From NCBI GenBank assembly GCA_016188495.1, contig JACPHU010000028.1:38325-102324 (forward strand): a DNA stretch of 64,000 nt, in the 5' to 3' direction. Below are positions 11,530 through 50,441 of this stretch, piece after piece. How positions within the stretch are numbered: the stretch's first letter is position 1; each line of letters opens with the position of its first letter. The notes under the pieces were generated by a model. That model had not been told where the DNA came from, did no database searches, and saw nothing but the letters and a program-made list of their open reading frames with translations. Source of the stretch: Candidatus Uhrbacteria bacterium. GTDB taxonomy: Bacteria > Patescibacteriota > Patescibacteriia > UBA9934 > GWF2-40-263. A program made the translations under genes and the position numbers.

Positions 11530-11542
11530 TTGATCCTTCTCT

Positions 11543-11588
11543 AATATTCCCTGAGCGGAGGTTTGTTCGACAAACCGGAGTCGAAGGG
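11543..11588 (+). repeat. R1 intergenic motif, copy I (AATATTCCCTGAGCGGAGG-hairpin-GGAGTCGAAGGG)
   Basis: Shares AATATTCCCTGAGCG and GTCGAAGGG with copies at 15573, 17102, 18878 and 20644. The internal hairpin GGTTTG-TTCGA-CAAACC differs from the other copies but preserves pairing. Confidence 0.5.
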
Positions 11589-11604
11589 TTATGTGATTTG
11601 AAAC

Positions 11605-11640
11605 AAAAAATAGCCTTTTGTGAGGCTATTTTTTGTTTTT
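11605..11640 (+). terminator. Rho-independent terminator downstream of murD and R1 copy I
   Basis: AATAGCCT-TTTGTG-AGGCTATT followed by TTTTGTTTTT. Confidence 0.6.
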
Positions 11641-11655
11641 GGTATGCCATCCATA

Positions 11656-11684
11656 TTGACAAAATGTCAAAAAAAGAGTAGTTT
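11656..11684 (+). promoter_or_regulatory. Putative promoter with a TTGACA-AAA-TGTCAA inverted repeat
   Basis: TTGACA at 11656, a 17-nt spacer, then TAGTTT. The -35 hexamer lies in the inverted repeat TTGACAAAATGTCAA, the mirror of the one at 605-619. Confidence 0.3.
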
Positions 11685-11737
11685 CTTTAGTCGACTTAGA
11701 TGTTCTCAATGTAACGGATTTAAAAGAAGGAGAAAAC

Positions 11738-12562
11738 GTGGAAGAGATCATTTTTGGACTTACAAAATGGATTCCTATAAGTTTTTATAACGTTCTTTTT
11801 TTCACCGTATTCTTTTTTGGACAGGGTCGACGAATAAAGTTTGTTCTAGTTACCTTGGCGTTTGCTGGTTCAGCAGTCTATGCCATGAAGTTCGGTTATT
11901 ATCTTGGGCATGGAAATAAGCTGCTTTATCCATTCGTGATAGAACAGGAGCCAAAGTTAGTCCTCTATATCATCACGTTCTTCTTTTGGGGAATTTTGTT
12001 TGTGACCCAACTCAACTATCGTCAACCCTCTAAACCTCAAAAGGTTTTTTCCTTTGATGCAGAAACCAATGGCTTGTGGGGTCAGCCCTTTGCCATCGGT
12101 GCCATTATCTACAATGAGGAGGGGGTTGAGACTGCTCGATTTGTCGGCCGGTGTCCCATTGTGGGAGAGGTTGACCGTTGGGTGGAGGAGAATGTCCTTC
12201 CTCAGATCATCGATATTTCTGAATCTTACGAGAACTATGAGGCACTTCTTGTGGATTTTGCCCAGTTTTACTTAACCCATCAGAAAGATGATGTGGATGT
12301 GCTGGTCCATATGGGCTACGTGATCGAAGCTCGGATTTTCCGTGACATGCACGATCGCGGCCTTATCGGGGATTGGCAGGCTCCTTATCCCTTGCATGAC
12401 GTGAGTGGAAATCTTCAGGCAGCTGGGGAGGATCCAACGTCTGTAGGGAAATATCTTGCTAAGAAGCGGCTCAACGCAGGTTCTTTTGCTGGAGGGTTCC
12501 ACAATCCGCTGTATGACTGTGCCGCTGCCGCTGTCGCGTATCGCCATCTTCAGGGATGGTAA
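11738..12562 (+). CDS. DEDDh-family 3'-5' exonuclease (DnaQ-like) with N-terminal transmembrane segments
   Basis: GTG start after AAGGAG. The N-terminal ~95 aa are hydrophobic. Exo I motif FSFDAETNGLWG and Exo III motif HNPLYDCAAAAVAY (H-x4-D) are present. Confidence 0.6.
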   Translation: MEEIIFGLTKWIPISFYNVLFFTVFFFGQGRRIKFVLVTLAFAGSAVYAMKFGYYLGHGNKLLYPFVIEQEPKLVLYIITFFFWGILFVTQLNYRQPSKPQKVFSFDAETNGLWGQPFAIGAIIYNEEGVETARFVGRCPIVGEVDRWVEENVLPQIIDISESYENYEALLVDFAQFYLTHQKDDVDVLVHMGYVIEARIFRDMHDRGLIGDWQAPYPLHDVSGNLQAAGEDPTSVGKYLAKKRLNAGSFAGGFHNPLYDCAAAAVAYRHLQGW

Positions 12563-12688
12563 TCAATATTACGTTTAAACCAATGAGTTCTTAAAAGGGA
12601 TTCGTTGGTTTTTTGTTTATCTGTAGTGGATAGCAGATTTATTTGAGAGAAAATGGCTTAAAATAAGCTTATTTTTTGTTTTATTCTA

Positions 12689-12717
12689 TTGACAAAATGC
12701 CTAAAATATGGTATATT
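12689..12717 (+). promoter_or_regulatory. Putative sigma70-like promoter
   Basis: TTGACA at 12689-12694, a 17-nt spacer, then TATATT at 12712-12717. Confidence 0.4.
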
Positions 12718-12858
12718 TTCTGTACATTTTTGGGAGAGAGACGTGATCGCCACACGACCCGCCACAAGGCAAAAGGCGAAGAAATCGGTGTTTTGGATAC
12801 ACTCTCTTGCCGAGAATTGTCTAGAATATCGGTTTTTGTTTTGTTCTTAAAAATTTTG

Positions 12859-13239
12859 ATGAGAAAGGATTGGCCATGTCGAAGGTTTTTCTTTTCGGTG
12901 ACTTCGGGAATGAAGGATGTTCTTCAGCTAGAGCAGATACTTCGGATGCGTGACATCGAGGTACAGCGAACCGAAGATCCTGGGAATGTGTCCGGGTTCT
13001 GTATTGTTTGTTTCTCTGCAGATTTCCAGAGCGGCGATTTCGCTGAGAGACTTCGAGTAAGGCAGTTGAACGGAGGAAATTTGAAACTCGTTCCTGTCGT
13101 ATTGACAGGGGGAGTTGTATCGTCGTTTCTGAAGCATCTGTTTCGGGTGGATTTGTCCGAAGGAGCCGAGAGTTCTCGTTTTGTTTCTACGGATCCGGAA
13201 CTGTTCATCCTGTCAATTACCGGCGTTCGTCGTCGGTAG
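12859..13239 (+). CDS. Hypothetical protein
   Basis: ORF in the 12676 frame; start uncertain between ATG 12859 and ATG 12910. No recognisable motif; G+C is intermediate. Confidence 0.3.
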   Translation: MRKDWPCRRFFFSVTSGMKDVLQLEQILRMRDIEVQRTEDPGNVSGFCIVCFSADFQSGDFAERLRVRQLNGGNLKLVPVVLTGGVVSSFLKHLFRVDLSEGAESSRFVSTDPELFILSITGVRRR

Positions 13240-13350
13240 AGTCTTTATCCATAAACGGGCCTCCCTGCCCATTGCCCTTGTTCCTCAGTGAAGGATTGTT
13301 CCGCGAGAGCGCAGAGGGAAGTCAGCATAGCTGGCCGAGCAGGGTGGGAA

Positions 13351-15495
13351 ATGCCAACAGATGTTGGCCATGTGCGACCGCAAGGCGCACAACCCGTGTC
13401 TCGTAGGAGAAACATGTTCCATCGTGTTGTTGTGATCGCTCCGACTCGGAGCACCTGCGTCAATATTCACACTGTTCTGTCCAACGGTTCCATTCCGCCG
13501 ACTCTCCTCGTTCGCGAGAAGGGTGTGGAACTCTCTGATGCCGTCGCTCATCTCCACGAAGGTGGATTTGGGGTGGTGGCAGGGACCGGAACCGGTAAGA
13601 CAGTCGCAATCAGAAAGATCTGCTCGGACGTTCTGGGAACGGAGCTGCTCATTGACGTGGTGACACGTGAACATGAAGCCACGGAAAAAACGTGGCGTTG
13701 CAATGTTCTCGTCGTTACTCCCGGCGTGGCCCTCAACTGGCTCAAGGCTGGTCGAATCACGGCTGAGGACTTGATCGTTATCGACGAGATCCACCAGACC
13801 TCCGAGCACCTGGAGCTGTCCATGGCTCTGGGGAAGCTCGAGAAGGAAGGGGCGAAGACTGGTTGCACTTTCGTCTGGATGTCGGCGACCATCGACCCCG
13901 CGACCTATCGGGGGTACCTCAACGCCAGGACGGTGATCTCCTGTGATGCCTTCGATCCAAGTCGTAGGGCAAAGGTCGAAGTACTGTATGCGGGTGTTCA
14001 AGAGTATCTCGAAGGGGAACTCAAGAACATCCAACAGGAACAGCGGTCGGTGGCGGTGTTCGTACCGACTCGTGCCCTCGCGGAGAAACTATCTCGCGAA
14101 CTAGGAGGACGGGGAGTTCATACGGACTTCTATCACGGAGGCGAGTCCGCCGAGAAGCTCCGCCCATTCCTGACCGGCAATGTACCGCGGCCGTTCATGG
14201 TATTCATGACGATCGCGGGCGCATCGAGCCTCAACATTCTCGGACTGGACACTGTTGTCATCGTTGACCAATGGTTTACCGAAGTAATTCGGGATGGAGG
14301 AAGGAAATCTCTCGAGAAGCTCTATCTCGGAGATAACGAACTTCTCCAGATGGGAGGGCGAGTAAATGGTCGAGCCGTCAACGGCAAGATCGTGATCCTC
14401 TCCAATCGTCAGGTGGACTTCCACAGTCTCAAGCCCGTGGCCCCCCAGTTCGTTCTTGGAGGAGATCTCGAGAATACGGCACTGATCTGTGCCCGTCTGG
14501 GGATCGATGCTCGTAATCTCGACCTGATCGGAAAGATCGATCATAAGGCGTATGCCCGCGTGGTCGAACGGTTCCGTCAGCGAGGATTGCTGGTCGTCAA
14601 CGGTGAGATCCATCTCACGGCTCTGGGTGAACATGTCGAAAAGCTGCCTGTCGAGCCTCATTGGGGGGAGATGTTGGTGGCGGCTGAGGACGTCGGGGAT
14701 CGTAAACTCTTCAATCTGATTACGGTTGTTGCCTCCTGTGGACAGCTGTACCAGATGCACCGGAAGGAATGGAATCGATTCTCCGGTGTGTGCGTGAGGG
14801 GGTCCGACCACCTCACGGCCTACAATATCGTGGTTCAGGCTTTGAACCAGTTCGGGTCTATCCGACAAAGCCGTGAAGGTCGTGAAAGCGAGTACACCCT
14901 TCGTGGGGACTGGTATCGAGGCCCTGATAACAAGGGGGAGTTCGCAGAGTGGTGTGACAAGAACGGGTTCGTCGGTAAGGAGATCAAGAACGTTCTCCTG
15001 TCTATGAAATCCATTTTTCGCACGCTCCAGATGCCTCTCCCCAAACCTGAGGAGTTCGAGGTTGTGACACTGGACTCAGAGGCTCACAAGTCCTTTGTCG
15101 GTCTTCTGGCAAAAGTCCAGTCTCTCGAGTTCGTCCGTGGAGAACAGAACTCTTTTGCTGGCACCGTTTGGGCCACGCAGGGAGGTATGTCCTCGACTTC
15201 GCAGACTCTCGGTTCCATTCGGTTCTGGAAGGATAAGAGGGGGTATCTGCGTGCCAGTATGGAAGGGACGGAAATCCCAACCGACCTGGTGCAGAAGCAC
15301 TCTTTCAAAACTCCAGAGAATCTGAAGGGAATGATCCAGGACGGAGATCGTTTCCAGATTAGTTACTCCGCGACCTTTGCGGGGGAGAAGATCAATCCGA
15401 TCGAGCGGGAGCTTGATCCGGATGACGTCCCAGAAGCCTGGCAGAGCGAGCTTCCGAGTCACTTCGCCTCCTGGCTGGCGAGCCAGATGGTTTGA
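13351..15495 (+). CDS. DEAH/RHA-family ATP-dependent helicase (HrpA/HrpB-like)
   Basis: Motif I AGTGTGKT, motif II VIDEIH, SAT motif MSATIDP, motif VI QMGGRVNGRA, and an HA2-like region LTALGEHVEKLPVEPHWGEMLVAAE followed by a C-terminal OB-like region. Start at the ATG at 13351 preceded by GGGTGGGAA; the GTG at 13288 and ATG at 13414 are alternatives. The sequence is G+C-rich. Confidence 0.75.
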   Translation: MPTDVGHVRPQGAQPVSRRRNMFHRVVVIAPTRSTCVNIHTVLSNGSIPPTLLVREKGVELSDAVAHLHEGGFGVVAGTGTGKTVAIRKICSDVLGTELLIDVVTREHEATEKTWRCNVLVVTPGVALNWLKAGRITAEDLIVIDEIHQTSEHLELSMALGKLEKEGAKTGCTFVWMSATIDPATYRGYLNARTVISCDAFDPSRRAKVEVLYAGVQEYLEGELKNIQQEQRSVAVFVPTRALAEKLSRELGGRGVHTDFYHGGESAEKLRPFLTGNVPRPFMVFMTIAGASSLNILGLDTVVIVDQWFTEVIRDGGRKSLEKLYLGDNELLQMGGRVNGRAVNGKIVILSNRQVDFHSLKPVAPQFVLGGDLENTALICARLGIDARNLDLIGKIDHKAYARVVERFRQRGLLVVNGEIHLTALGEHVEKLPVEPHWGEMLVAAEDVGDRKLFNLITVVASCGQLYQMHRKEWNRFSGVCVRGSDHLTAYNIVVQALNQFGSIRQSREGRESEYTLRGDWYRGPDNKGEFAEWCDKNGFVGKEIKNVLLSMKSIFRTLQMPLPKPEEFEVVTLDSEAHKSFVGLLAKVQSLEFVRGEQNSFAGTVWATQGGMSSTSQTLGSIRFWKDKRGYLRASMEGTEIPTDLVQKHSFKTPENLKGMIQDGDRFQISYSATFAGEKINPIERELDPDDVPEAWQSELPSHFASWLASQMV

Positions 15496-15572
15496 CCCAT
15501 ACGGAGATCTGAGGACTCCTAAACAATTCCTCATCAAACGTTCCCAAGCTGCACACGCAAGCGGCTTGGGAT

Positions 15573-15670
15573 TTCAACTGGAAGACTGATTCGATCGGTC
15601 TCCTGAGAAGTCAAAACCTCGAATATTCCCTGAGCGAGGAGTTCTCGACGAGTCGAAGGGGAAATATTCG
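15573..15670 (+). repeat. R1 intergenic element, copy II (extended form)
   Basis: TTCAACTGGAAGACTGA...TCTCCTGAGAAG...GAATATTCCCTGAGCGAGGAG...GTCGAAGGGGAAATATTCG aligns over ~100 nt with copy III. It lies 45 nt upstream of the 15718 ATG. Confidence 0.55.
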
Positions 15671-15717
15671 TCAATGTTCTTTAAAACAATCCGTGAAAGC
15701 GGAAGAAGGAGAAAGAA

Positions 15718-16473
15718 ATGGTTGAGATTCAAACGATTCTTTCTGTAGAGATGGATGAGTGTGTGGAAACAGGAATGTCTTTCAAGGCTCTTCGAGGAAT
15801 TATCCGTGAATATACCGGTGAAGAATTGCCGGTGTGTCCGGATGTTCAAGATCCAGTCTATTTCTATCATGAGGAGACGGGCAATCCTATGCTCCTCACT
15901 GAGGATCTTAATTGTGGAGAGATCCGTGGAGAGCAGAAACGAGGGGTTCAGATCGGAAGTTTGCTCCTCGTTATTTCAGAAGAGAATGGGTGTGCGGATG
16001 AATGGACTCTTACGTCACCGATTCTCTCGTTTCTTTCCGTCTACCTCCTTCCCGACACTTCTACTTTCAACACTCCTGCGAAGGAGAAGGTTGTGACAAA
16101 GATCGACGATCTCGACCTCATCGGACAGGTTGTTCGTGAGAGGATCTGGATCGAGGAGGATCCGGACAACCAGTATTTCAGTGTTCCTCCGGAGGAGGGT
16201 GTGCAGATGTGGACCGAGGAGGAGGCGAGAGTCTTTTTCGTCTTTGGATTTCAGATCGAACTCCCTCCCGACACCCATCCCTGGGGTTTCTCGACTCAGG
16301 TGGGGGATCTGGGTCCAGATCCCATTGACGTTGACGTTGTTGTCTTTTGGGACGGTGACGGCACGGCGATCATTCGTCTGCGAAAGGAGGGGTGTGAGAA
16401 TATCACCCTCATAAACAGGGATTGTAAGAAGGATTACGGGTGGAAAAAGATAGGAGTCAACGATGATGTTTGA
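15718..16473 (+). CDS. Hypothetical acidic protein
   Basis: 251 aa, preceded by an AAGGAG RBS; G+C-rich codon usage; no recognised motif. Confidence 0.45.
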   Translation: MVEIQTILSVEMDECVETGMSFKALRGIIREYTGEELPVCPDVQDPVYFYHEETGNPMLLTEDLNCGEIRGEQKRGVQIGSLLLVISEENGCADEWTLTSPILSFLSVYLLPDTSTFNTPAKEKVVTKIDDLDLIGQVVRERIWIEEDPDNQYFSVPPEEGVQMWTEEEARVFFVFGFQIELPPDTHPWGFSTQVGDLGPDPIDVDVVVFWDGDGTAIIRLRKEGCENITLINRDCKKDYGWKKIGVNDDV

Positions 16474-16813
16474 GACTGCGCTTCAGTTCCTTATTCCCTA
16501 CATGGGATGGGGGATCGTGATCCTTGCCGTGATGATCGTGTTGGATGTGATCCTCACGATTCATCGGAGCCATGGAATGTTCGACCTGGAATGCCAGGCC
16601 GAGCGGATCAACGAGGACTTTGATGAGTTGGAAAAGACTCATGGCCTCGTCCGGTCCCGATGGAGGGGTCGCCTGAAATTGTTCCTCTACGTTTGCGCCT
16701 GGCCGATCGTGGTCGGGCGATGGCTCAAAGTGACTTATTACGGCGAGACAACGTTTGTTGAGAAGATTCTCGCCGGGGCTAAGAAAAAAATCAAAGAGAA
16801 GAAAGGGGAGTAA
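16463..16813 (+). CDS. Hypothetical membrane protein
   Basis: 116 aa with an N-terminal TM helix (WGIVILAVMIVLDVILTI); overlaps the upstream gene by 11 nt. Confidence 0.4.
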   Translation: MMFETALQFLIPYMGWGIVILAVMIVLDVILTIHRSHGMFDLECQAERINEDFDELEKTHGLVRSRWRGRLKLFLYVCAWPIVVGRWLKVTYYGETTFVEKILAGAKKKIKEKKGE

Positions 16814-17041
16814 ATGATAATGTTTTTGTTCATCCTGGTACTGCTTGGATTTTTCGACGGTTTGTCTGGATCTCAGGCAAGCTGGCTGATGATCAAGTTC
16901 GCACTGTTCTACTGGGTTGTGGAACTGGTCCTGGATATTACGATCGGAGATCGATTCAGGACTTGGTACAAAACGACCCGTTTGCATGGATTTTTAGTAG
17001 GAGTTCTGAAGAAAAATTTCGGGGATCATAGGATCCCATAA
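16814..17041 (+). CDS. Hypothetical small membrane protein
   Basis: 75 aa with two hydrophobic helices; its ATG immediately follows the upstream stop. Confidence 0.35.
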   Translation: MIMFLFILVLLGFFDGLSGSQASWLMIKFALFYWVVELVLDITIGDRFRTWYKTTRLHGFLVGVLKKNFGDHRIP

Positions 17042-17101
17042 CGGCTTTCGAGTCTGCATAGCGGCGGGCTCGGAGGTGGCGAGGGATTACACTCTCGCCG
17101 C

Positions 17102-17208
17102 TTCAATTGGAAGACTGAGAAAATCTCGGTTTCCTGAGAAGGTTAAATATCCGAATATTCCCTGAGCGGAGGCTCGTCAGACGAGCCGAAGTCGAAGGGG
17201 AGATATTC
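17102..17208 (+). repeat. R1 intergenic element, copy III (extended form)
   Basis: TTCAATTGGAAGACTGAGA...TTTCCTGAGAAG...GAATATTCCCTGAGCGGAGG-GCTCGTC-AGA-GACGAGC-CGAAGTCGAAGGGGAGATATTC. An AGGAGG RBS lies 9 nt upstream of the 17245 ATG. Confidence 0.55.
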
Positions 17209-17244
17209 ACCAACGTTCCTCAAATAATCAGGAGGTTCTCCGTG

Positions 17245-18726
17245 ATGCAGACTGTTATCGATCACAATCGTACTGTCGCCGCCCGTGCGGTTCAGCTCAA
17301 CATTCGGGTCGGAGAGAATCGTTTCCCGGTCATGGATCGCACTGCACTTGCAACCTGGCTCGTCAGTCGGCTCAAAGGAGCCCGTCGGGTTTCGGAAGTT
17401 CAGAATTGGGACGTTTTGCGTCTGCCGGATCTGGACCAGGCTCTGGTCGCCCAGACGCTCGCCGAGTGTCCGGACACATTGAATGTCCTGGGTGTGGATG
17501 TCCTGGTGGAATATCGGGCGCCTTACTGCGGCATACCTCAGGCTCCGCGAGTGTCTCTTCCGGAAGAATTGGTGGCCAAGATGGGTTGGACCAATCTCCC
17601 GGACGAGGGCGTCGTCCTTCCTAGCGGACGGATGGTCGAGGTGTCTTTCTCGATTCGGTCCGGTTACTACGGGACGTCTTTTTTCGGAACCGACATCCTG
17701 CAGCTCAAGGAACAGGTGAGAGATCATTTGAACCAGGGTCAGTGGGATCGCTGGGTCATCAAGCCTGAGATTGTTCTTCCGAATATGTCGGATGCGACCG
17801 TCACCATCCCCGAGATCATCGCCGACGATTATGGTCGGTGTGTGGTCACTGGGCGATATCTTTTCGCCTACGGTACGGTGCAACCCTACCGTTACTACTC
17901 TTCAGACCCGCTGACCTGGAAGTCTTTCTGGACCCGCAATTGGGCGGAGGCTGAGAAGATGCATGCCAAGGCGGTCGCGGAGTTGGAGAAGAATCGCGAA
18001 GCAATCCGTCTCGAGGCCCAGCGTGGGCAGATGATGGAGGAGGTCGAGTCTCTCAAGACCCAGGCGAGCGAGCTGTATAATCTGGCTTACAACCAGTACT
18101 ACAGCGAGTTCGATTCTGATCTGCGTACTCAGATCTACTATCTGCGCAGCCCGTCGTTTTACTCGTCCACCGGTGTGGTGGAGATTAATCGCTGGATCAA
18201 CGAGACCAAGCCGGTTCTGGCGAAGGCGCAAGCCGAAGTCGATCGGATCACTACTCAGCGTGCTGAGGCCGAACGAATTCGTTTGGAGACGGAAGAACTC
18301 GAGAAGCGAGAACTCGAGATCATTCTGCCTTTGGTAGATGATCGTATGAAGGTAGCTCGGGACATCCTTTGTTTTGCCAAGGCGGTTGAATCTCTCAAAG
18401 GGGCTGTCAAGGGAGCCTGTCTTCTTCGCGGTGAACTGTCAGCTTCGTACGGTCGAGCTCGGCGACAACAGGTGTTGCGAGAGGCTCTGCCGACTCTCGA
18501 TGAATATGACAATGCCAGTGGAGTTCTCTACTTCAATCGAGCCGCGGATGTAGATCTGTGGCTTGAAGCGGCGGCAACCTGGCTCGAGTCTCGCAATGGT
18601 GGTCCCGTGGCAGTTTCGAAGAAGTCGGTTCCGAAGCCTTCTTCTACGATATCGGCTCCAACGTCTTCCAACGGCGGTGGGTTTACCCTCGCTGATCTGG
18701 CTGGCAAGTTCAGTTCTCGACGCTAA
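17245..18726 (+). CDS. Hypothetical protein with a central coiled-coil region
   Basis: About 493 aa from the ATG at 17245 (the track starts at a GTG at 17242). Residues ~250-370 are heptad-rich (AEAEKMHAKAVAELEKNREAIRLEAQRGQMMEEVESLKTQ...), and the C-terminus is Ser/Gly-rich. Confidence 0.45.
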   Translation: MQTVIDHNRTVAARAVQLNIRVGENRFPVMDRTALATWLVSRLKGARRVSEVQNWDVLRLPDLDQALVAQTLAECPDTLNVLGVDVLVEYRAPYCGIPQAPRVSLPEELVAKMGWTNLPDEGVVLPSGRMVEVSFSIRSGYYGTSFFGTDILQLKEQVRDHLNQGQWDRWVIKPEIVLPNMSDATVTIPEIIADDYGRCVVTGRYLFAYGTVQPYRYYSSDPLTWKSFWTRNWAEAEKMHAKAVAELEKNREAIRLEAQRGQMMEEVESLKTQASELYNLAYNQYYSEFDSDLRTQIYYLRSPSFYSSTGVVEINRWINETKPVLAKAQAEVDRITTQRAEAERIRLETEELEKRELEIILPLVDDRMKVARDILCFAKAVESLKGAVKGACLLRGELSASYGRARRQQVLREALPTLDEYDNASGVLYFNRAADVDLWLEAAATWLESRNGGPVAVSKKSVPKPSSTISAPTSSNGGGFTLADLAGKFSSRR

Positions 18727-18877
18727 ACACTCCCCTCACACGAGGGGTTCACAACACGAGGAGGATCGCGCATACGCACGCGCGATCCTCTCCTCAATTT
18801 CCTCCGTCACAATAGGGTGATGTGGGATGAGAGGAAAGCAAAAAGAAAAACAACCTCAAAGTGAGATTGTTTCCACG

Positions 18878-18915
18878 CATATTCCCTGAGCGAGGAGTTC
18901 TCGACGAGTCGAAGG
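18878..18915 (+). repeat. R1 intergenic motif, copy IV
   Basis: CATATTCCCTGAGCGAGGAGTTCTCGACGAGTCGAAGGG is identical over 34 nt to the core of copy II. It sits between two convergent genes. Confidence 0.5.
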
Positions 18916-18928
18916 GTTGCATCTAGGA

Positions 18929-19486
18929 TTATGCACGCGGAAAGGGCTCCATGTTCATAATATGTTGCGCTGATTCCACAGGAAGCACTTTATATTTCAC
19001 GAGTTCCTCAACCAAGACGTTGAGTTTACGATCTTCTTTACGCATCAGAACAGTGAAGTCCCCGCGAAGATCACCAAGCTTTTCATCCAAATAGTCTTTT
19101 GTGACCATGTTTGTTTTCAGATAAGAAACGTCTGTTTCAACTCCAGAAAGTCTATTCTCAACTCCAGAAAGACGATTTTCTATCCCCGTAAAACGTTCTT
19201 CTGTATGTTGGGCGAAGGTGTTAATGGTCGATAAAATGTCGTCATTTTGTTGAGCGAGCTTGTCAGTCTCAAGAACGAGCTTATCGGTCTTAAGAACAAG
19301 TTGTTCGTTCTGTTGAGCCAGCTTATCGGTCTTAAGAACAAGTTGTTCGTTCTGTTGAGCGATTTTATCGGTCTTAAGAACAAGTTGTTCGTTCTGTTGA
19401 GCGATTTTATTGATTGCTAAAAGAATATCATTTTGAGTTGGTTCGTTCATACATTTTGGATTATAACACACAGACGCATTCCTCAT
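18929..19486 (-). CDS. Coiled-coil protein with tandem 14-aa repeats
   Basis: 185 aa. Contains AQQNEQLVLKTDK(L/I) repeated three times plus degenerate copies; lower G+C than neighbouring genes. Confidence 0.45.
   Translation of the reverse strand: MRNASVCYNPKCMNEPTQNDILLAINKIAQQNEQLVLKTDKIAQQNEQLVLKTDKLAQQNEQLVLKTDKLVLETDKLAQQNDDILSTINTFAQHTEERFTGIENRLSGVENRLSGVETDVSYLKTNMVTKDYLDEKLGDLRGDFTVLMRKEDRKLNVLVEELVKYKVLPVESAQHIMNMEPFPRA
19241..19406. repeat. Tandem 42-nt direct repeats (about 3.5 copies) inside the 18929..19486 CDS
   Basis: The unit TTATCGGTCTTAAGAACAAGTTGTTCGTTCTGTTGAGC(GATT/CAGC) recurs at 19281, 19323 and 19365, with a degenerate copy upstream. The repeats are in-frame and encode the 14-aa repeat. 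Confidence 0.6.
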
Positions 19487-19589
19487 AATTTTAGAATAAT
19501 CATCGCATTATTCTCCTCAATTTCCCTCGTCATAATAATGTGATGATGGATGAGAGGATCTTCCGGGTCAATACAACAAGGAGACACAC

Positions 19590-20477
19590 ATGAGCTTTGC
19601 TCGTGAAGTGTTTTTTGGAAAAGTTGACCTGGACACGCTTGTGACATCTCTTGTTCTAGGACTCAATCCTAGCGAGATATTGTTCAAAGCGGTTGCTGGG
19701 TCCGTGTCTGAGGTCATGCTGGCGGATACGTCCGTGATGGCCATCGAAGTCGGCGGAAGCGGAAGAGTCGCCGAGAATAACTTCGACCATCATTCTTCCA
19801 AAGGAGGGACCACTCTTTCCTCTGCAGCTCAGGCGCTTGAGCGTCTTGCTCGACTTGTCCGCTATGTGGATGAGCTCGATCGGGGTGATCGTCGTGCTGA
19901 GTATGTAAAGGACGGCGGATTTCCATCGCTGTCTCAGCTCATTTCGGGAATGCTCCTTGTTGAGCATAGTCCCAATGTCCGTATGGAAAGAGGACTGGAA
20001 CTCCTCAAAGTCGTTCTTCACAGCGGAATCGATCCGTTTGGTTCCATGGATGCTATTCTGGATTTTATTCCTCAAGGTCGTTTGTATGCCTCCACAAAAC
20101 GGGAGCATGATCGACAGTTTGAGGAAATGTCTAGAACGGCGACGTGGTACACCACAAACGAGGGTCGAAGATTTGCGGTGGTAGAAACTTCCTGGATCGG
20201 CGCGCTGGGTGTTTTATATGGGAAAGGAGCGGATATCGTTCTTGCTCTCAATCCTGAAATGTCCAAGTCGGACGGAAACGGAAGCTACAAAAAATTCACC
20301 CTCGCGGTGAATCGGTCTGTCGTAGATATCACAGTCTTTCCCGTCCTTGAAGAGCTGTTAAAACTCGAAGAGGGATGGGGCGGACCAAATCATGGAGGAA
20401 TCTGCGGGTCTCCGGTTGGAAGAAATTCTGAATTGGAGATTCAACAAGTTGTTCAGATCGTGATCGAGAAACTGTAA
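19590..20477 (+). CDS. Hypothetical protein
   Basis: 295 aa, G+C-rich, no recognised motif. Confidence 0.45.
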   Translation: MSFAREVFFGKVDLDTLVTSLVLGLNPSEILFKAVAGSVSEVMLADTSVMAIEVGGSGRVAENNFDHHSSKGGTTLSSAAQALERLARLVRYVDELDRGDRRAEYVKDGGFPSLSQLISGMLLVEHSPNVRMERGLELLKVVLHSGIDPFGSMDAILDFIPQGRLYASTKREHDRQFEEMSRTATWYTTNEGRRFAVVETSWIGALGVLYGKGADIVLALNPEMSKSDGNGSYKKFTLAVNRSVVDITVFPVLEELLKLEEGWGGPNHGGICGSPVGRNSELEIQQVVQIVIEKL

Positions 20478-20643
20478 AAGACAGAACGTTCATACTCTTG
20501 CGGAATAAAAAAGTAGCCCAAAAAGTGGCGAAATGATGTTCCAGCATGTTTCGGGTGAAAACTCCGCCCGGGACTGGTATCGTTTTGCGCTTTTGCAAGG
20601 CAAACCAGTGAGGCATTCGTGCCTAGCATGACTTCTCTTCCAT

Positions 20644-20672
20644 TTCCGGGCGGAGGCTCGGAAGAGAAGGGG
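20644..20672 (+). repeat. R1 motif, degenerate copy V, immediately upstream of the 20684 ATG
   Basis: TTCCGGGCGGAGGCTCGGAAGAGAAGGGGAG matches copy III (TTCCCTGAGCGGAGGCTCG...GAAGTCGAAGGGGAG). Confidence 0.35.
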
Positions 20673-20683
20673 AGTATGAGTAG

Positions 20684-21697
20684 ATGTCGGAGTCCATTTC
20701 TAATCGCAAGCTTCTCGTGATCGCCGGCGGTTCGCCTTCGTCTATCATCGCCACGTATCTCTATTTGAGTGACGGTGGAGTGGACCCTGAGACCGTGCTG
20801 GAGCAGATGAAGGCAGGTGAGATTCAAGTGGTCTTCACTCAGGCCTTTCAGGTCGGTGAGCATCCCAGGTTTGGAGTGAGCGAGGCGCTCAAGGCTGTGC
20901 GTGAACTGCCGAAAGATGGGCAAGTCGTCTGGATCGGACTGGGCGTGAACAACCAGGATCCCCAGATGACCGAGAACATTTTTCGTGAGATCGGCATTGA
21001 TCGCCTCCATGTGGTCTGTGATGAGCATGAGCCCGAGCGCTGGGAAGCTCTCATGGAAAAGCTTGGTTTTGTTTCCGGGCAGTTTTCTCTCAAGACCAAG
21101 CCGGAACATCGTTCGGCTGCCTCCATCGTTGCGGAGGATTTCGGTGTGCCCATTTACGAAATCTTCGTTCAGGCGGGTGATTGGGCCGACAATCGGCAGA
21201 TGGATGTTTCCGATGAGGCACAGAGAATCGCCTTTTCTATCTCGGCCGCAACTAAGCTGAGGATGGGAGACAATGCGTTTCGTGTGACAGCCCTTCTGCA
21301 TCTGTTGGGAGACCGGGAGGCGCGGAAGGAGTTCTACGTTCGTCTTGAGGCTGCGGGTCCGGTGTATGCTGCCGTGGAGGAGGCTTTGGCCAACGCTCAG
21401 ATGCAGGGCCAGATCCTGGTCGTCCATAAGAAGGAGGGCGAGGCGGGTCTGGTCTTCGATGATACCGACGCGATGAACCAGGGGTACGCTCGTGCTCCGT
21501 TTGTGGTTGTCATCGGAGAGAAGTCTGGAGAGGGTCCGTGCATTCAGGTCGGGGTGAACAACAGCCACCCGACTCTGGGCAAGACGAACCTGCTTCAGGT
21601 TCTCGCCGACTTCGGTCCCACAGGAATCGTCCCGAAGGTCGCCATCCGTGGGACCGAGAATCTTTTTGAGATTCTTGTGAGGCTCAACGCTCTGTAA
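20684..21697 (+). CDS. Hypothetical protein
   Basis: 337 aa, G+C-rich, no recognised motif. Confidence 0.45.
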   Translation: MSESISNRKLLVIAGGSPSSIIATYLYLSDGGVDPETVLEQMKAGEIQVVFTQAFQVGEHPRFGVSEALKAVRELPKDGQVVWIGLGVNNQDPQMTENIFREIGIDRLHVVCDEHEPERWEALMEKLGFVSGQFSLKTKPEHRSAASIVAEDFGVPIYEIFVQAGDWADNRQMDVSDEAQRIAFSISAATKLRMGDNAFRVTALLHLLGDREARKEFYVRLEAAGPVYAAVEEALANAQMQGQILVVHKKEGEAGLVFDDTDAMNQGYARAPFVVVIGEKSGEGPCIQVGVNNSHPTLGKTNLLQVLADFGPTGIVPKVAIRGTENLFEILVRLNAL

Positions 21698-21705
21698 TTT
21701 CATTA

Positions 21706-21791
21706 CTCAGCTCTTGTTACGTACATCTGTATGTAGCAAGGGCTTATTCTCTCAGGATCGCAGGTTCCTCGCCTGTGGTGCTGAGAGGATA
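21706..21791 (+). repeat. R2 intergenic repeat, copy a
   Basis: CTCAGCTCTT...AGGGCTTATTCTCTCAGGATCGCAGGTTCCTCGCCTGTGGTGCTGAGAGGATA. The 3' ~50 nt are near-identical to the copy at 22566. The 5' hairpin CTTGTTAC/GTAGCAAG covaries with CTTCTGT/ACAGAAG in copy b. Confidence 0.55.
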
Positions 21792-21804
21792 GAAATATCT
21801 TAAA

Positions 21805-22092
21805 ATGTTTTTTCGCAACGGAGGAATGATGAGAGTTTTTTCCTTAGCAAATTGTTTTCTTGTTACCGCATGGTTAGTGTATGTGTTTGTGGATCTGGAA
21901 AAATTCAAGGAGCCCAAGATAGTTCATTTGACATGTGCCGGAGTCTATCTCATTACGGGTGGGCTTTTCGGAGTCTCTATGTACGTCGACAGGGTGGAGA
22001 CGTATCGATCGGCACTCTGTTTGATGATCCTCTCTTTTCTTATCGTTGGTGTGGAAATCATTCGCGCCAATATGTGTAAGTCTAAGGTTTAG
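21805..22092 (+). CDS. Hypothetical membrane protein
   Basis: 95 aa with three hydrophobic helices. Confidence 0.35.
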   Translation: MFFRNGGMMRVFSLANCFLVTAWLVYVFVDLEKFKEPKIVHLTCAGVYLITGGLFGVSMYVDRVETYRSALCLMILSFLIVGVEIIRANMCKSKV

Positions 22093-22104
22093 AAAGGAAA
22101 GAAA

Positions 22105-22560
22105 ATGTATTATATCGACACAGATCGCTCACCCACGTTGAGTACGCCCGGGATGGAGTTCGATGAAGTGTATGGGCATCGAACCTATGGAGAGAGGGTG
22201 TGGAATCCTCAGATAGCAGGTCTGTACTTTTCTCGAAAACAGACTTCAGGATCGTTTATCGATCAGTATGGTATTCGTGAGGCACTCAAGACCGAGTGTC
22301 CCATGAATGCCAACATGCTGGATTTTTTTCTGGAGCATCCGGAAGAGATCCCTCCAGGATGGGGGCGTTCTTGTTACAAGACGATCTATTTCTTCGGTAC
22401 CTTGCTCAAGCGGACGGGTCGTCTATTCGTTCGATGCCTCATCCGTCAGGATGATGGGACGTACATTGGCGGGTATCACGAATTGGACTGTTCCGCTCAG
22501 GATGTACGATGGTCCAATGATCCGGTCGCGGTCCATCTCTTTTTTGACATGCTCCTTTGA
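22105..22560 (+). CDS. Hypothetical protein
   Basis: 151 aa, no recognised motif. Confidence 0.4.
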   Translation: MYYIDTDRSPTLSTPGMEFDEVYGHRTYGERVWNPQIAGLYFSRKQTSGSFIDQYGIREALKTECPMNANMLDFFLEHPEEIPPGWGRSCYKTIYFFGTLLKRTGRLFVRCLIRQDDGTYIGGYHELDCSAQDVRWSNDPVAVHLFFDMLL

Positions 22561-22565
22561 ATAAT

Positions 22566-22652
22566 CTCAGCTCTTCTGTCGTATGTACGGTATACAGAAG
22601 GGCTTATTCTCTCAGGATCGCAGGTTCTCTCGCCTGTGGTGCTGAGAGGATA
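22566..22652 (+). repeat. R2 intergenic repeat, copy b
   Basis: See copy a; it follows the 22105..22560 stop and precedes the 22726 gene. Confidence 0.55.
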
Positions 22653-22725
22653 AGAAATTATTCATTTCGAATCCTTTTTCGTACTGAATCAGTGATAGTA
22701 ACAACAGAGAAAGGAGTCCTTTAAA

Positions 22726-23145
22726 ATGGACAGGAACGATGAGGATAAGGTTTTTTCAGACGAGAAACTTTCAGACCATACGGATCATCCGGAAGTGTCT
22801 GAGTCTTTTTATGGTGCATGGGATAGGTTGATCGATCATCTGTCTTTTCGCCACTCTATAGAGAGCGATATGGATGTCGGGACTCCTCCCTATGAGGAGA
22901 GCCGATATTTCGGATGGGGAGATGAAGGTGATGAGCTCGACGATGGCTACGATGAACCTGAGTCGTGGCTCCCAGATGATTGTGAGTATGAAGATGACTA
23001 CCGCGGTCCCGATTCCATGTTGAATGAGTCGGATGATGAACCGGAAGGGGAGCACGACTGGCAGATGGAGGTGTGTGCGCATGCAATTGCAGGCTATGAA
23101 CACCTCGAAAATCTTCCTCGATTCGAAAAGATGAGAAGGTCTTGA
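22726..23145 (+). CDS. Hypothetical highly acidic protein
   Basis: 139 aa, Asp/Glu-rich (DDGYDEPESWLPDDCEYEDDYRGPDSMLNESDDEPEGEHD). Confidence 0.4.
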   Translation: MDRNDEDKVFSDEKLSDHTDHPEVSESFYGAWDRLIDHLSFRHSIESDMDVGTPPYEESRYFGWGDEGDELDDGYDEPESWLPDDCEYEDDYRGPDSMLNESDDEPEGEHDWQMEVCAHAIAGYEHLENLPRFEKMRRS

Positions 23146-23161
23146 ACATAAGGAGGGTCAT

Positions 23162-23680
23162 GTGCAGATAGGACGTCCGAAAGATCGTCTTTCCTCTGTA
23201 GAGCTTCGTGAGTTGTTTGCCAATAAAATCAGAGATTTCGACAGTGGGCGCGGGATGGAAATTCCTCATCGGTTCCCCGATGAGTTGGAAGGTCTGTGTT
23301 TCAGCCTGTGTGTCTTGGACAGAGTGATCGGAAATCTGTTTGCACGTACGGACGAATCTGCTTGCGAATACCCGGTGGTTCGCGCGTATGCTTGTTGGAC
23401 TATCGTAGCCCTCACGAGGAATCGCAGAATCACCAATGAGCATCCTGATGAGGAAGCTCAGGTTCAAGCGTTGGTTGAGTTTTTGATCAAGGAGACTCGC
23501 TGGACGGATCGTCAGATCGAATATCCGCGTTCTCAGTCAGGTTTCATGAACCTTGTTGACGAACTCAATGAGGAACAGAGACTCCTTTCTTTGGAAGAGA
23601 CAGAGCCGGGTTTGGATGAAGACTATCCAGACGAGGAAGACGATCATTTCGGTCGTCTGATCGGATGGATTGAAAAGTAA
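23162..23680 (+). CDS. Hypothetical protein with acidic C-terminus
   Basis: 172 aa, GTG start; no recognised motif. Confidence 0.4.
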   Translation: MQIGRPKDRLSSVELRELFANKIRDFDSGRGMEIPHRFPDELEGLCFSLCVLDRVIGNLFARTDESACEYPVVRAYACWTIVALTRNRRITNEHPDEEAQVQALVEFLIKETRWTDRQIEYPRSQSGFMNLVDELNEEQRLLSLEETEPGLDEDYPDEEDDHFGRLIGWIEK

Positions 23681-23689
23681 TAATCTCAC

Positions 23690-23740
23690 CCGAGTTCGTT
23701 GCATTACGCGCACGACTCGGGTTTTATTTTTATCTATCCA
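23690..23740 (+). terminator. Putative terminator at the distal end of the G+C-rich island
   Basis: Imperfect stem CCCGAGTTCGT...ACGACTCGGG followed by TTTTATTTTTAT. Confidence 0.4.
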
Positions 23741-25677: not shown

Positions 25678-25807
25678 GAGATCTTTGCAAAACTCGCGAT
25701 CTTGCCCTTCACGGGCGCCCGTTGACCACACTCTCCCTATGAGGAATAGGCTTCGTGCGGCAGGGCAGCCCGTTCAAGACAATCTCATCGAGTTTTGTAA
25801 AGATCTC
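25678..25807 (+). repeat. Copy A of the palindromic repeat element, filling the spacer between the 23806 gene stop and the giant-gene start
   Basis: GAGATCTTTGCAAAACTCG...CGATCTTGCCCTTCACGGGCGCCCG...CCCTATGAGGAATAGG...GCAGCCCGTTCAAGACAATCTCATCGAGTTTTGTAAAGATCTC. The terminal 19-bp stem has one G-U wobble (GCAAAAC vs GTTTTGT), allowed only in plus-strand RNA. The copy has no stop in one frame. Confidence 0.6.
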
Positions 25808-25816
25808 ATAAACCAC

Positions 25817-47010: not shown

Positions 47011-47088
47011 GGGCCGGTGGTGTAGCCCGGTTAACACGTCGCCCTGTCACGGCGAAGTTCGCGGGTTCGAATCCCGTCCGGCCCGCCA
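47011..47088 (+). tRNA. tRNA-Asp (anticodon GTC)
   Basis: Acceptor GGGCCGG/CCGGCCC, anticodon stem TCGCC/GGCGA with loop CTGTCAC, T-arm GCGGG-TTCGAAT-CCCGT, discriminator G and an encoded CCA. Confidence 0.85.
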
Positions 47089-47162
47089 GGACAACTTCTT
47101 ATCGGAGCGACCCGTAGGCCTCAAGCCATACGGGGCGACCCATAGGGATATGTCCCCAGTAC

Positions 47163-50397: not shown

Positions 50398-50441
50398 GAA
50401 TTGCCACGGGATGCGAATTTTGAGAGAATAACTTCAATTAT

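What the first reader, a model, noticed from the sequence alone, without database searches (positions are those of the whole stretch)
11540..23740. Compositionally distinct ~12-kb island carrying a membrane-anchored DnaQ-like exonuclease, a DEAH/RHA helicase and about 12 proteins with no recognisable function
From just after murD (11529) to the terminator near 23700, codon usage shifts visibly toward G/C-ending codons (ctc, gag, ggc, ccg). The flanking dcw and surface-protein genes are A/T-rich. The island encodes a DEDDh exonuclease fused to an N-terminal membrane anchor, a DEAH/RHA helicase with an HA2 domain, several tiny TM proteins, coiled-coil proteins and strongly acidic proteins. None carry motifs I can place. 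The genes are separated by two families of conserved, structured intergenic repeats (R1 with 5 copies, R2 with 2). It could be a foreign mobile or viral-like element, a transfer from a high-G+C partner organism, or an uncharacterised exonuclease-helicase system. Exonuclease plus helicase plus small membrane effectors is an arrangement seen in several anti-phage systems, but no known system matches.
Basis: partly seen in the sequence, partly recalled or inferred. Interest (0 to 1): 0.7.

Follow-up and report, generated by a model that had tools for sequence, protein, structure and literature searches.

The report
Resident helicase–phosphoesterase locus, not foreign island
The G+C-rich stretch is not recently imported DNA: it is a fast-changing locus shared with a sister species, built around a split RNA-helicase gene and two DHH-type phosphoesterase genes that also sit together in unrelated bacteria, with genes separated by conserved folded RNA-like spacers.

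Summary
The "acquired island" reading does not.

**Composition.** The shift is real (GC3s, Mann-Whitney p=5e-5). It comes from four genes: helicase 13414-15495, 16463-16813, 17242-18726 and 20684-21697. It does not span all of 11.5-23.7 kb.

**Why it is not an import.**
- The same helicase family is G+C-enriched in all 19 other Patescibacteria loci checked (GC3 above every flanking gene in 16 of 16 testable sources).
- Its GC3 tracks host GC3 (r=0.78), so the bias belongs to the gene family.
- A sister Uhrbacteria species has the syntenic locus.
- No integrase or att-like repeats were found.

**What the genes are.**
- The helicase plus 17242-18726 form a split HrpA-like DEAH/RHA helicase. They are fused in many relatives, and one fused relative hits DUF3418.
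- 20684-21697 has a DHH/DHHA1 fold.
- 19590-20477 carries DHH motifs. Its family is fused to CARF effectors or sits beside Cmr or mCpol genes elsewhere.
- This DHH pair recurs next to a DEAH helicase in five lineages, one a 3.7-Mb G+C-rich genome.
- The membrane-anchored DEDDh exonuclease is real, but it is a separate, Patescibacteria-wide housekeeping-type gene.

**Spacers.** Four structured intergenic element families (R0, R1, R2, D3) are better conserved than the genes and flank swapped gene cassettes.

Biological role is unproven. Interest is moderate.

The parts
11543..11588 (+). R1 structured element, copy 1, just after the murD stop. A hairpin terminator follows at 11607-11640.
11738..12562 (+). 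Membrane-anchored DEDDh 3'-5' exonuclease. It has its own promoter-like site (11654) and terminator (12577-12611), and host-like GC3 (0.45). I treat it as a separate housekeeping-type gene, not part of the G+C-rich module.
   Evidence: The AF2 model has pLDDT above 90 in the C-terminal domain. Foldseek finds RNase T, ERI and Orn. The family holds 765 proteins at 60-68% identity, mostly 173 aa and lacking the N-terminal extension. Homologues lie next to dnaE in L111 and next to murD in L110.
12689..12717 (+). Sigma-70-like promoter (11 of 12 positions, extended -10), likely driving 12862 through the helicase genes. It resembles the exonuclease promoter.
   Evidence: (repeat D13).
12862..13239 (+). 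Small ORF of unknown function with host-like composition.
13414..15495 (+). HrpA-like DEAH/RHA helicase core (693 aa, GC3s 0.63). It ends in the conserved tail FASWLASQMV.
15573..15612 (+). R0 hairpin element, copy 1.
15618..15671 (+). R1 element, copy 2.
15718..17041 (+). Three-gene cassette inserted between the helicase core and its C-terminal module. It holds an acidic 251-aa protein and two small membrane proteins (16463-16813 and 16814-17041).
   Evidence: Homologues of 15718 (36% identity) and 16814 (30%) are present in the sister species.
17101..17209 (+). R0 copy 2 (17101-17143) plus R1 copy 3 (17152-17209). Together they duplicate the roughly 110-nt module found at 15573-15671.
17242..18726 (+). 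C-terminal module of the helicase, encoded as a separate gene (494 aa, GC3s 0.60). It has an alpha+beta N-domain, a coiled coil and a tail.
   Evidence: It is fused to the helicase in L007-L010, L012, L013, L016 and L018. The fused orthologue P0023 hits Pfam DUF3418 at 27.8 bits against a cut-off of 25. Residues 71-332 of the window protein align to that same region.
18786..18922 (+). D3 hairpin copy 1 (18786-18839), a terminator-like hairpin, and R1 copy 4 (18875-18922).
18929..19486 (-). Low-G+C coiled-coil protein with 21-nt tandem repeats. It is the only minus-strand gene in the region.
   Evidence: It is 71% identical in the sister species.
19510..19560 (+). D3 hairpin copy 2, in the 5' leader of 19590. 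A D3-like hairpin also precedes the 19590 homologue in L096.
19590..20477 (+). DHH-like phosphoesterase, assigned by motifs only: VDLDT, NFDHH and GWGGPxHGG.
   Evidence: Motifs are invariant in the 3-sequence alignment. The family has 273 representatives. Elsewhere it is fused to CARF plus HD, fused to a PD-(D/E)xK effector beside a Cmr operon, or sits next to mCpol. There is no Pfam, PDB or hhalign hit.
20684..21697 (+). DHH/DHHA1-fold protein (GC3s 0.65). The canonical DxD motif I is absent. DEH, GDWADNR and GxKxGxG are invariant.
   Evidence: The AF2 model has pLDDT 86.5. Foldseek finds PAP phosphatase 8a8k (E 3e-11), PggH, RecJ, NrnA and GdpP. A homologue in L115 scores hhalign probability 99.1%.
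21706..21795 (+). R2 two-hairpin element, copy 1.
21805..22560 (+). Variable cassette: a 3-TM 95-aa protein and a 151-aa protein. Neither has a homologue in the sister species.
22566..22655 (+). R2 element, copy 2.
22726..23680 (+). Two acidic proteins (139 aa, pI 4.1; 172 aa, pI 4.6), absent from the sister species. A conserved terminator follows at about 23690-23730.

Best explanation
This is a resident, fast-evolving accessory locus of this Uhrbacteria lineage, not newly imported DNA.

**Core (shown).**
- An HrpA-like DEAH/RHA RNA helicase is split into a core gene (13414-15495) and a C-terminal DUF3418-like module (17242-18726). A three-gene cassette sits between them.
- Next come two DHH-type phosphoesterase genes. 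19590-20477 has intact DHH motifs. 20684-21697 has the DHH/DHHA1 fold but a degenerate active site.

**Proposed mechanism (inferred).**
- The helicase, with its C-terminal module supplied in trans, engages and pulls or unwinds RNA. E. coli HrpA does this on mRNA of collided ribosomes.
- The DHH pair, one catalytic and one probably regulatory or structural subunit, hydrolyses short oligonucleotides or nucleotide-derived signal molecules.
- The small membrane and acidic proteins are lineage-specific accessory cassettes.

**Intergenic elements.**
- R0, R1, R2 and D3 are strand-specific hairpins in the transcripts. I infer that they act as processing, stability or translation-control leaders.
- Because they repeat, they also provide homology patches for swapping cassettes.

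**Composition.** The G+C-rich codon usage belongs to these gene families wherever they occur. Its cause is unknown. G+C-biased gene conversion at a recombination-prone locus is one candidate.

**Exonuclease.** The DEDDh exonuclease upstream is an independent, Patescibacteria-wide gene that here has gained a membrane anchor.
For: **Residency.** The sister species has helicase, 15718-like, 16814-like, 17242-like (59% identity), coiled-coil (71%), 20684-like (63%), then pilin (88.6%) and the giant protein. This appears in four assemblies.

**Intrinsic G+C bias.**
- The helicase is 8-15 G+C points above its flanks in 19 of 19 other Patescibacteria loci.
- Its GC3 exceeds that of every flanking gene in 16 of 16 testable sources (15 loci plus the window). 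The mean offset is +0.18 (Wilcoxon p=3e-5) and r=0.78 with host GC3.
- The 17242 and 20684/19590 homologues are also G+C-rich elsewhere.

**Split HrpA.**
- The two genes are fused in 8 loci.
- The fused orthologue P0023 hits DUF3418.
- The E. coli HrpA C-terminal region belongs to the DUF3418 superfamily and senses ribosome collisions (PMC11419001).

**DHH pair.** The fold is and the motifs.

**Cross-lineage link between the DHH pair and a DEAH/RHA helicase.**
- It is seen in the window, L092, L094/L014, L012 and L115.
- L115 also has a protein sharing the C-terminal domain of 17242.

**Modular exchange.**
- In the sister species the helicase body is an unrelated canonical DEAH/HA2 helicase. 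Identity jumps to about 90% at 33 nt before the stop codon and continues through R0.
- The genes after 20684 differ, but they are flanked by the same R2 and D3 elements.

**Structured elements.**
- Pairs kept through changes on both sides: 4 in R2, 2 in D3, plus a covarying inner stem in R1.
- All copies lie on the gene strand.
- Nucleotide identity between the two species is 80-88%, against 67-74% for the locus coding DNA.
Against: - No biochemical or expression data exist, so the functional coupling rests on gene neighbourhood alone.
- 17242 itself has no direct Pfam or PDB hit. The link to DUF3418 runs through one fused orthologue scoring just above the cut-off.
- Most Patescibacteria helicase loci lack the DHH pair. 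One DHH-pair locus (L096) has no helicase in the roughly 10 kb sequenced downstream.
- 19590 is called DHH from motifs only.
- 20684 lacks motif I and may be inactive.
- The links of the 19590 family to CRISPR type III genes fit a conflict role at least as well as a housekeeping one.
- The cause of the G+C bias is unexplained.
Confidence: 0.5

Rival explanations
1. The helicase, the DHH pair and the variable small membrane and acidic proteins form a biological-conflict module. It would be either a defence system or a counter-defence set left by a mobile element. The DHH enzymes would degrade nucleotide second messengers (cyclic oligoadenylate or SAM-AMP-like), as NrN and ring nucleases do in type III CRISPR systems.
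For: - The 19590-like domain is fused to CARF plus HD in P0300.
- In P0290 it is fused to a CARF-PD-(D/E)xK-like nuclease beside a Cmr operon.
- In L114 it sits next to mCpol.
- NrN DHH and DEDD phosphodiesterases partner membrane effectors in type III systems. NrN's closest structures, PggH and GdpP, are also among the top matches for 20684 (PMC10600005).
- The 20684 family is patchy and rare, with 9 clusters.
- Components are swapped between sister species while the architecture is kept.
- Cassettes encoding acidic and membrane proteins turn over.
- The L115 operon starts beside a divergently transcribed Xre-type regulator gene.
Against: - No PADLOC or PHROGs hit was found for any island protein or for the L115 neighbours.
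- No cyclase, Cas10, CARF or SAVED gene was detected in the window.
- The Patescibacteria helicase is 55-67% identical across classes and usually sits among housekeeping genes, which is unlike defence genes.
- Only four contexts of the 19590 family were inspected, and two were chosen because they were fusions.
Confidence: 0.3
2. This is a recently acquired genomic island, prophage remnant or transfer from a high-G+C partner organism.
For: - G+C and GC3 are elevated in part of the region.
- Many ORFs have no assigned function.
- The region interrupts the murD...ftsA cell-division cluster.
- More distant relatives of the pilin gene lack these genes upstream.
Against: - The locus is syntenic in a sister species.
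- The G+C excess is family-intrinsic and tracks host composition in 16 of 16 testable sources.
- There is no integrase, transposase, tRNA junction or flanking direct repeat.
- Promoters are host-like.
- The first 1.7 kb (exonuclease and 12862) have host composition.
- A textbook mobile island with a serine recombinase and a type I R-M system lies elsewhere, at 47-60 kb.
Confidence: 0.08
3. This is an assembly chimera that joins DNA of two organisms.
For: Composition changes within the contig. The sister-species contigs end just upstream of the helicase.
Against: - Four independent assemblies of the sister species have the same G+C-rich genes joined to the same pilin and giant-protein genes.
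- The source contig's proteins are on record from two assemblies.
- The R1 element occurs both in host-like DNA (11543) and in G+C-rich DNA.
Confidence: 0.02

Closest known systems
E. coli HrpA (DEAH/RHA RNA helicase with a DUF3418 C-terminal region; splits collided ribosomes)
   Same: - It has the DEAH/RHA core motifs GTGKT, DEIH and QMGGRVNGR. NCBIfam HrpB/HrpA and PDB Prp43/HrpA give weak hits.
- A C-terminal alpha+beta plus helical module follows the core, and a fused orthologue hits DUF3418.
   Different: - Sequence similarity is only distant (phmmer E about 1e-4 against HrpA chains).
- The protein is split into two genes, with three ORFs inserted between them.
- Pfam finds no HA2 or OB domain in the window protein.
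- GC3 is elevated in every lineage examined.
- It is sometimes clustered with a DHH pair.
DHH/DHHA1 phosphoesterases: NrnA, PggH, GdpP, PAP phosphatase, and the CRISPR-associated NrN
   Same: - 20684 has the two-domain DHH/DHHA1 fold.
- 19590 carries DxD, DHH and GGxH-like motifs.
- Like NrN, the 19590 domain occurs in type III CRISPR contexts.
   Different: - Neither protein hits the Pfam DHH or DHHA1 models.
- 20684 lacks motif I.
- The two families are not detectably related to each other.
- They occur as an adjacent pair, often near a DEAH helicase.
DEDDh exonucleases (RNase T, oligoribonuclease, ERI-1, DnaQ)
   Same: The fold matches, and the DxE and H-x4-D catalytic residues are present.
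   Different: - It belongs to a Patescibacteria-specific family with no Pfam hit.
- In this genome it has an N-terminal membrane extension of about 100 aa, which most members lack.
PeSL mobile regulatory cassettes of T4-type phages (PMC2839356, PMC4122927); also T7 intergenic RNase III sites and integron attC arrays
   Same: Conserved, structured intergenic modules punctuate same-strand genes. They flank ORFs that differ between close relatives, and the modules are better conserved than the ORFs.
   Different: - There is no sequence similarity to any of these.
- The locus is cellular, not phage.
- No embedded promoter consensus was detected.
- No integron integrase or attC core sites are present.
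- Function is untested.
Helicase-plus-nuclease defence systems (Hachiman, Mokosh, Gabija and others)
   Same: The gene logic is a helicase plus nuclease or phosphoesterase plus small accessory proteins.
   Different: No PADLOC model matches any component. The helicase family is different (DEAH/RHA).

Membership tests
Horizontally acquired genomic island / prophage | Composition differs from the host across the element. | tested here: inconclusive
   Only four genes are strongly shifted. The tetranucleotide dip is modest, and similar dips occur elsewhere in the window.
Horizontally acquired genomic island / prophage | The composition anomaly reflects a donor, so it is not shared by orthologues in other hosts. 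| tested here: not met
   Helicase GC3 exceeds that of every flanking gene in 16 of 16 testable sources and correlates with host GC3 (r=0.78).
Horizontally acquired genomic island / prophage | Mobility genes are present, or insertion is at a tRNA with flanking direct repeats. | tested here: not met
   There is no integrase or transposase domain. No tRNA lies within the region. No boundary repeats were found.
Horizontally acquired genomic island / prophage | Absent from close relatives. | tested here: not met
   The locus is syntenic in the sister species. The murD side of that species' locus could not be recovered.
HrpA-type DEAH/RHA helicase | DEAH/RHA RecA core motifs. | tested here: met
   Pfam DEAD scores 1.9e-11. 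NCBIfam HrpB scores 6.6e-13, below its cut-off. PDB Prp43-like and HrpA chains align over residues 98-516 and 98-437. Invariant motifs are listed.
HrpA-type DEAH/RHA helicase | HA2, ratchet and OB auxiliary domains. | tested here: inconclusive
   No Pfam HA2 or OB hit was found for the window protein. The alignment to Prp43-like chains reaches residue 516. No structure model was made.
HrpA-type DEAH/RHA helicase | DUF3418 C-terminal region. | tested here: inconclusive
   The fused orthologue P0023 scores 27.8 bits against a cut-off of 25. 17242 itself and its profile give no Pfam or PDB hit.
DHH/DHHA1 phosphoesterase | Two-domain DHH plus DHHA1 fold. | tested here: met
   Met for 20684: Foldseek probability 1.0 to 8a8k, 7d62, RecJ, NrnA and GdpP. 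Not tested for 19590.
DHH/DHHA1 phosphoesterase | Catalytic motifs DxD, D, DHH, D and GGGH. | tested here: inconclusive
   19590 has VDLDT, DHH and GWGGPxHGG. 20684 has no DxD, carries DEH in place of DHH, and GxKxGxG in place of GGGH.
DEDDh exonuclease | RNase T/DnaQ-like fold with DEDD and H residues. | tested here: met
   The fold is shown. D107, E109, D203, H255 and D260 are invariant.
Known anti-phage defence systems (PADLOC 2.0) | A match of the component proteins to system models. | tested here: not met
Integron cassette array | IntI integrase and attC sites with RYYYAAC/GTTRRRY cores. | tested here: not met
   No integrase is present. On inspection of the repeat sequences, no such cores were seen.
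Described RNA families (Rfam 15) | A covariance-model match for R0, R1, R2 or D3. | tested here: not met
   Nothing relevant was found at E up to 10 in the island, or in repeat-rich viral loci.

The most novel reading that the evidence does not exclude
The split DEAH/RHA helicase, the DHH phosphoesterase pair and an adaptor domain form a previously undescribed helicase-phosphoesterase system. It is conserved across phyla and acts on nucleotide-signal or RNA substrates in genetic conflict, either as defence or as counter-defence. In Uhrbacteria it sits in a hyperplastic locus. There, conserved structured RNA modules (R0, R1, R2, D3) both control expression and mediate cassette exchange. The persistently G+C-rich codon usage would be a footprint of constant recombination or transfer.
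Probability: 0.25. Interest if true: 0.8.

Novelty: new variant of a known kind. Interest (0 to 1): 0.5.

Why it matters
**Method.** A G+C-rich patch in a streamlined Patescibacteria genome need not mean foreign DNA. One helicase family and its partners carry a G+C excess of about +0.18 in GC3 across the phylum. That pattern is unexplained and could mislead island-finding tools.

**A candidate system.** The locus points to an uncharacterised but recurrent partnership between DEAH/RHA helicases and a pair of divergent DHH phosphoesterases. One of the pair belongs to a family wired into type III CRISPR signalling loci. This is directly testable with purified proteins.

**Gene turnover.** The locus gives a cellular example of gene-cassette turnover bounded by conserved structured intergenic modules. 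That pattern is best known from T4-type phages.

**Helicase architecture.** An HrpA-like helicase tolerates being split, and it can even have its motor swapped for another DEAH family while keeping an 11-codon tail.

Tried and rejected
**Family and structure searches that gave nothing useful**
- Pfam, NCBIfam, PADLOC and PHROGs on the island proteins returned only helicase hits.
- Rfam found nothing at gathering or E up to 10 thresholds for the repeats.
- PDB sequence and profile searches for 17242, 19590 and 20684 found nothing meaningful.
- hhalign of 19590 against 20684 showed no relation.
- hhalign of the sister species' 367-aa protein against 19590 gave only a weak local match at the DHH motif.

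**Collection scans**
- The helicase gave no relatives in IMG/VR.
- R2 gave no hits in IMG/VR.
- The R1 core gave 71 IMG/VR contigs. By my rough estimate, single hits are about what chance predicts for an 18-base gapped pattern in tens of gigabases. I therefore count only the multi-copy or nested cases.

**Other dead ends**
- A literature search on the R1 sequence found nothing useful.
- Two hand-written patterns for D3 and R0 failed. I replaced them with nhmmer.
- The afdb50 fold library was unavailable.
- I could not recover the murD side of the sister-species locus, because its contigs end at the helicase.

**Ideas considered and dropped**
- Hammerhead or K-turn identity for R1: the core does not fit the hammerhead consensus, and nothing was tested further.
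- Integron attC identity for the repeats.
- Expression-linked codon bias as the cause of the G+C excess. Both C-over-T and G-over-A choices shift and A-ending codons are avoided, which does not discriminate between causes.

Full report
**Source and setting.** The window comes from a Candidatus Uhrbacteria (Patescibacteria) contig. The helicase, 20684 and exonuclease products are identical to HYV70_05130, HYV70_05165 and HYV70_05120 on a 106-kb contig. The flagged region lies inside a cell-division cluster. Upstream are mraY, ftsW, murG, a P-type ATPase, a translin-family gene and murD. Downstream are a T4SS-pilin/Big_5 gene, a 3,500-aa surface protein, TSP3-repeat proteins, ftsA and ftsZ.

**Checking the composition claim.**
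- Background G+C is about 0.45. It reaches 0.55 at 13-15, 17-19 and 21-22 kb.
- Thirty-four background genes have mean synonymous GC3 of 0.407 (sd 0.054). Island genes as a set are higher (Mann-Whitney p=4.6e-5).
- The signal comes from the helicase (0.63, z 4.1), 16463 (0.67, z 4.9), 17242 (0.60, z 3.6) and 20684 (0.65, z 4.4).
- The exonuclease, 12862, the minus-strand coiled-coil gene, 19590, 21805 and 22726 are at background.
- Composition-normalised tetranucleotide usage dips only modestly at 13-17 kb. It dips equally at 33 and 52 kb.
- In the G+C-rich genes both C-over-T and G-over-A choices shift, and A-ending codons are avoided.

**Why the G+C excess is not evidence of import.**
- The helicase has thousands of relatives. 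They are 55-67% identical across Patescibacteria classes.
- In all 19 other Patescibacteria loci fetched, the helicase gene is 8-15 G+C points richer than its surroundings.
- In the 16 sources with enough flanking genes (15 loci plus the window), its GC3 exceeds that of every flanking gene. The mean offset is +0.18 (Wilcoxon p=3e-5).
- Its GC3 correlates with host GC3 (r=0.78).
- Partner genes show the same excess in other genomes.
- A bias that follows the gene family and tracks the host is not a donor signature. Its cause is open. G+C-biased gene conversion at a recombination-prone locus is one candidate, and this is inference.

**Synteny.** A sister Uhrbacteria species (GCA_003485135.1 and three metagenome assemblies) carries the same locus.
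- Its order is helicase, a 15718 homologue (36% identity), a 16814 homologue (30%), a 17242 homologue (59%), the minus-strand coiled-coil gene (71%) and a 20684 homologue (63%).
- Three unrelated genes follow, then the pilin gene (88.6%) and the giant protein.
- The locus therefore predates the split of the two species and evolves much faster than its flank.
- Relatives whose pilin is only 50-72% identical have none of these genes in the upstream sequence recovered (up to 10 kb).
- There is no integrase, no tRNA junction and no boundary repeat.
- A classical mobile island lies elsewhere in the window, at 47-60 kb. It has tRNA-Asp, a large serine recombinase and type I R-M genes.

**The helicase is a split HrpA-like enzyme.**
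- The helicase and the 17242 product are adjacent in L001-L006. They are one ORF in L007-L010, L012, L013, L016 and L018.
- The fused orthologue P0023 hits Pfam DUF3418 above the cut-off. The window protein aligns to that same stretch.
- In E. coli HrpA the DUF3418-type C-terminal region binds two collided ribosomes and is required for splitting them (PMC11419001).
- Direct profile searches with the 17242 domain found nothing in the PDB. This homology is therefore supported but thin.
- In the window the two halves are separated by three ORFs. A duplicated module of about 110 nt (R0 plus R1) brackets those ORFs.

**Motor swap in the sister species.**
- Its helicase is a canonical DEAH/HA2 enzyme, only 26% identical to the window's.
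- The DNA alignment is unrelated up to 33 nt before the stop codon. It then jumps to about 90% identity through the conserved tail FASWLASQMV and the R0 hairpin.
- One helicase body has therefore replaced another at a sharp junction.

**The DHH pair.**
- The 20684 model (pLDDT 86.5) matches DHH/DHHA1 enzymes: PAP phosphatase, PggH, RecJ, NrnA and GdpP.
- Its family has only 9 clusters. It lacks motif I but keeps DEH, GDWADNR and GxKxGxG.
- 19590 has DxD, DHH and GGxH-like motifs. It has no detectable profile similarity to 20684 or to solved structures.
- The 19590 family has 273 representatives.
- Of four contexts inspected, one is a fusion to CARF plus HD.
- A second is a fusion to a CARF-PD-(D/E)xK-like nuclease beside a Cmr operon.
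- A third lies next to mCpol.
- The fourth is in a 3.7-Mb G+C-rich genome (L115). It is followed by a true 20684 homologue (hhalign probability 99.1%).
- Further along that L115 operon lie a protein sharing the C-terminal domain of 17242 and a DEAH/HA2 helicase like the sister species'.
- The DHH pair thus lies near a DEAH/RHA helicase in five lineages: the window, L092, L094/L014, L012 and L115.
- NrN, a DHH phosphodiesterase whose nearest structures are also PggH and GdpP, degrades the SAM-AMP signal in type III CRISPR systems. DEDD nucleases substitute for it in some of those systems (PMC10600005).

**The exonuclease.**
- The fold and catalytic residues are DEDDh. The N-terminal helical hydrophobic extension is real, since a strong Shine-Dalgarno site precedes the GTG start at 11738.
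- The family is Patescibacteria-wide, with 765 proteins at 60-68% identity, and most members lack the extension.
- It lies next to dnaE in one genome and next to murD in another.
- It has host-like composition and its own promoter and terminator.
- I treat it as a separate gene.

**Intergenic elements.**
- There are four families. R0 has 2 copies, R1 has 4 plus 1 degenerate, R2 has 2 and D3 has 2.
- All lie on the gene strand, and none occurs elsewhere in the 64-kb window.
- All four are present in the sister species, in multiple copies and in front of different genes. Their nucleotide identity between species is 80-88%, above that of the locus's own coding sequence.
- Pairs kept through changes on both sides support hairpins: 4 in R2, 2 in D3, and a covarying inner stem in R1.
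- D3 sits just upstream of ribosome-binding sites. A D3-like hairpin precedes the 19590 homologue in L096.
- No Rfam family matches.
- The closest analogy is the PeSL regulatory cassettes that flank variable ORFs in T4-type phages (PMC2839356, PMC4122927). This is an analogy only.

**Verdict.**
- The locus is a resident, hyperplastic accessory locus built on a helicase-phosphoesterase core. It is not a foreign island.
- Neighbourhood evidence cannot settle whether the core serves RNA surveillance and turnover or a nucleotide-signal conflict function.
- I give the first a slight edge for the helicase and the second real weight for the DHH pair.

Noticed in passing
window 47011-60400: A textbook mobile or defence island lies here. 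It holds tRNA-Asp (47011-47088), a 574-aa unknown protein, a large serine recombinase (48961-50397, minus strand) and a type I restriction-modification system: hsdR 52112-55303, hsdS 55550-56776 and hsdM 58213-59724.
   Followed up: partly
R1 core; IMG/VR loci L066, L080, L081, L083; L017:19417-19445 and L017:14699: The 18-base R1 core (CCCTGAGCG...GTCGAAGGG) recurs in G+C-rich viral contigs. There it forms multi-copy, nested 'Russian-doll' arrays. It also occurs in another Patescibacteria genome, about 20 nt upstream of an 801-aa gene that begins MKKYNHKKIEKKWQEFWEE. No Rfam family covers it. By my rough estimate single hits are near chance; the nested arrays are not. What this element is remains unexplained.
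   Followed up: partly
window 8746-9318: This is a translin-family protein (Pfam E 8e-21). To my knowledge this family is best known from eukaryotes and archaea. It sits between a P-type ATPase gene and murD.
   Followed up: no
window 23806-36046: A pilin-like protein (T4SS_pilin/TrbC plus Big_5) is followed by a 3,500-aa protein. In the sister species the counterpart of that giant protein also carries the pilin-like domain. The pair is 79-89% conserved there, but in more distant relatives it sits in other genomic contexts.
   Followed up: partly
window 19231-19410: The minus-strand coiled-coil gene contains six or more 21-nt tandem repeats, giving heptad-like KLAQQNEQLVLKTD units. It is the lowest-G+C gene in the region.
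   Followed up: no
L111:2638-6549: In another Patescibacteria genome the DEDDh exonuclease homologue lies immediately downstream of dnaE (DNA polymerase III alpha). This suggests the family could be the proofreading subunit.
   Followed up: no
L003-L006, about 16-22 kb: In four genomes the helicase neighbourhood also holds PIF1-type helicase, thymidine kinase and T4-type RNA ligase genes.
   Followed up: no
L092:7241-8344: The sister species lacks a 19590 homologue. After its 20684 homologue it has a 367-aa protein with an 'INIDHH' motif. That motif aligns weakly to the DHH motif region of 19590 (hhalign E 0.003, probability 10%). It may be a functional replacement.
   Followed up: partly
L092 and L093, contig ends: The contigs from the public assemblies of the sister species shown end within about 200 nt upstream of the helicase gene. 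This is consistent with strain heterogeneity or repeats at that junction.
   Followed up: no
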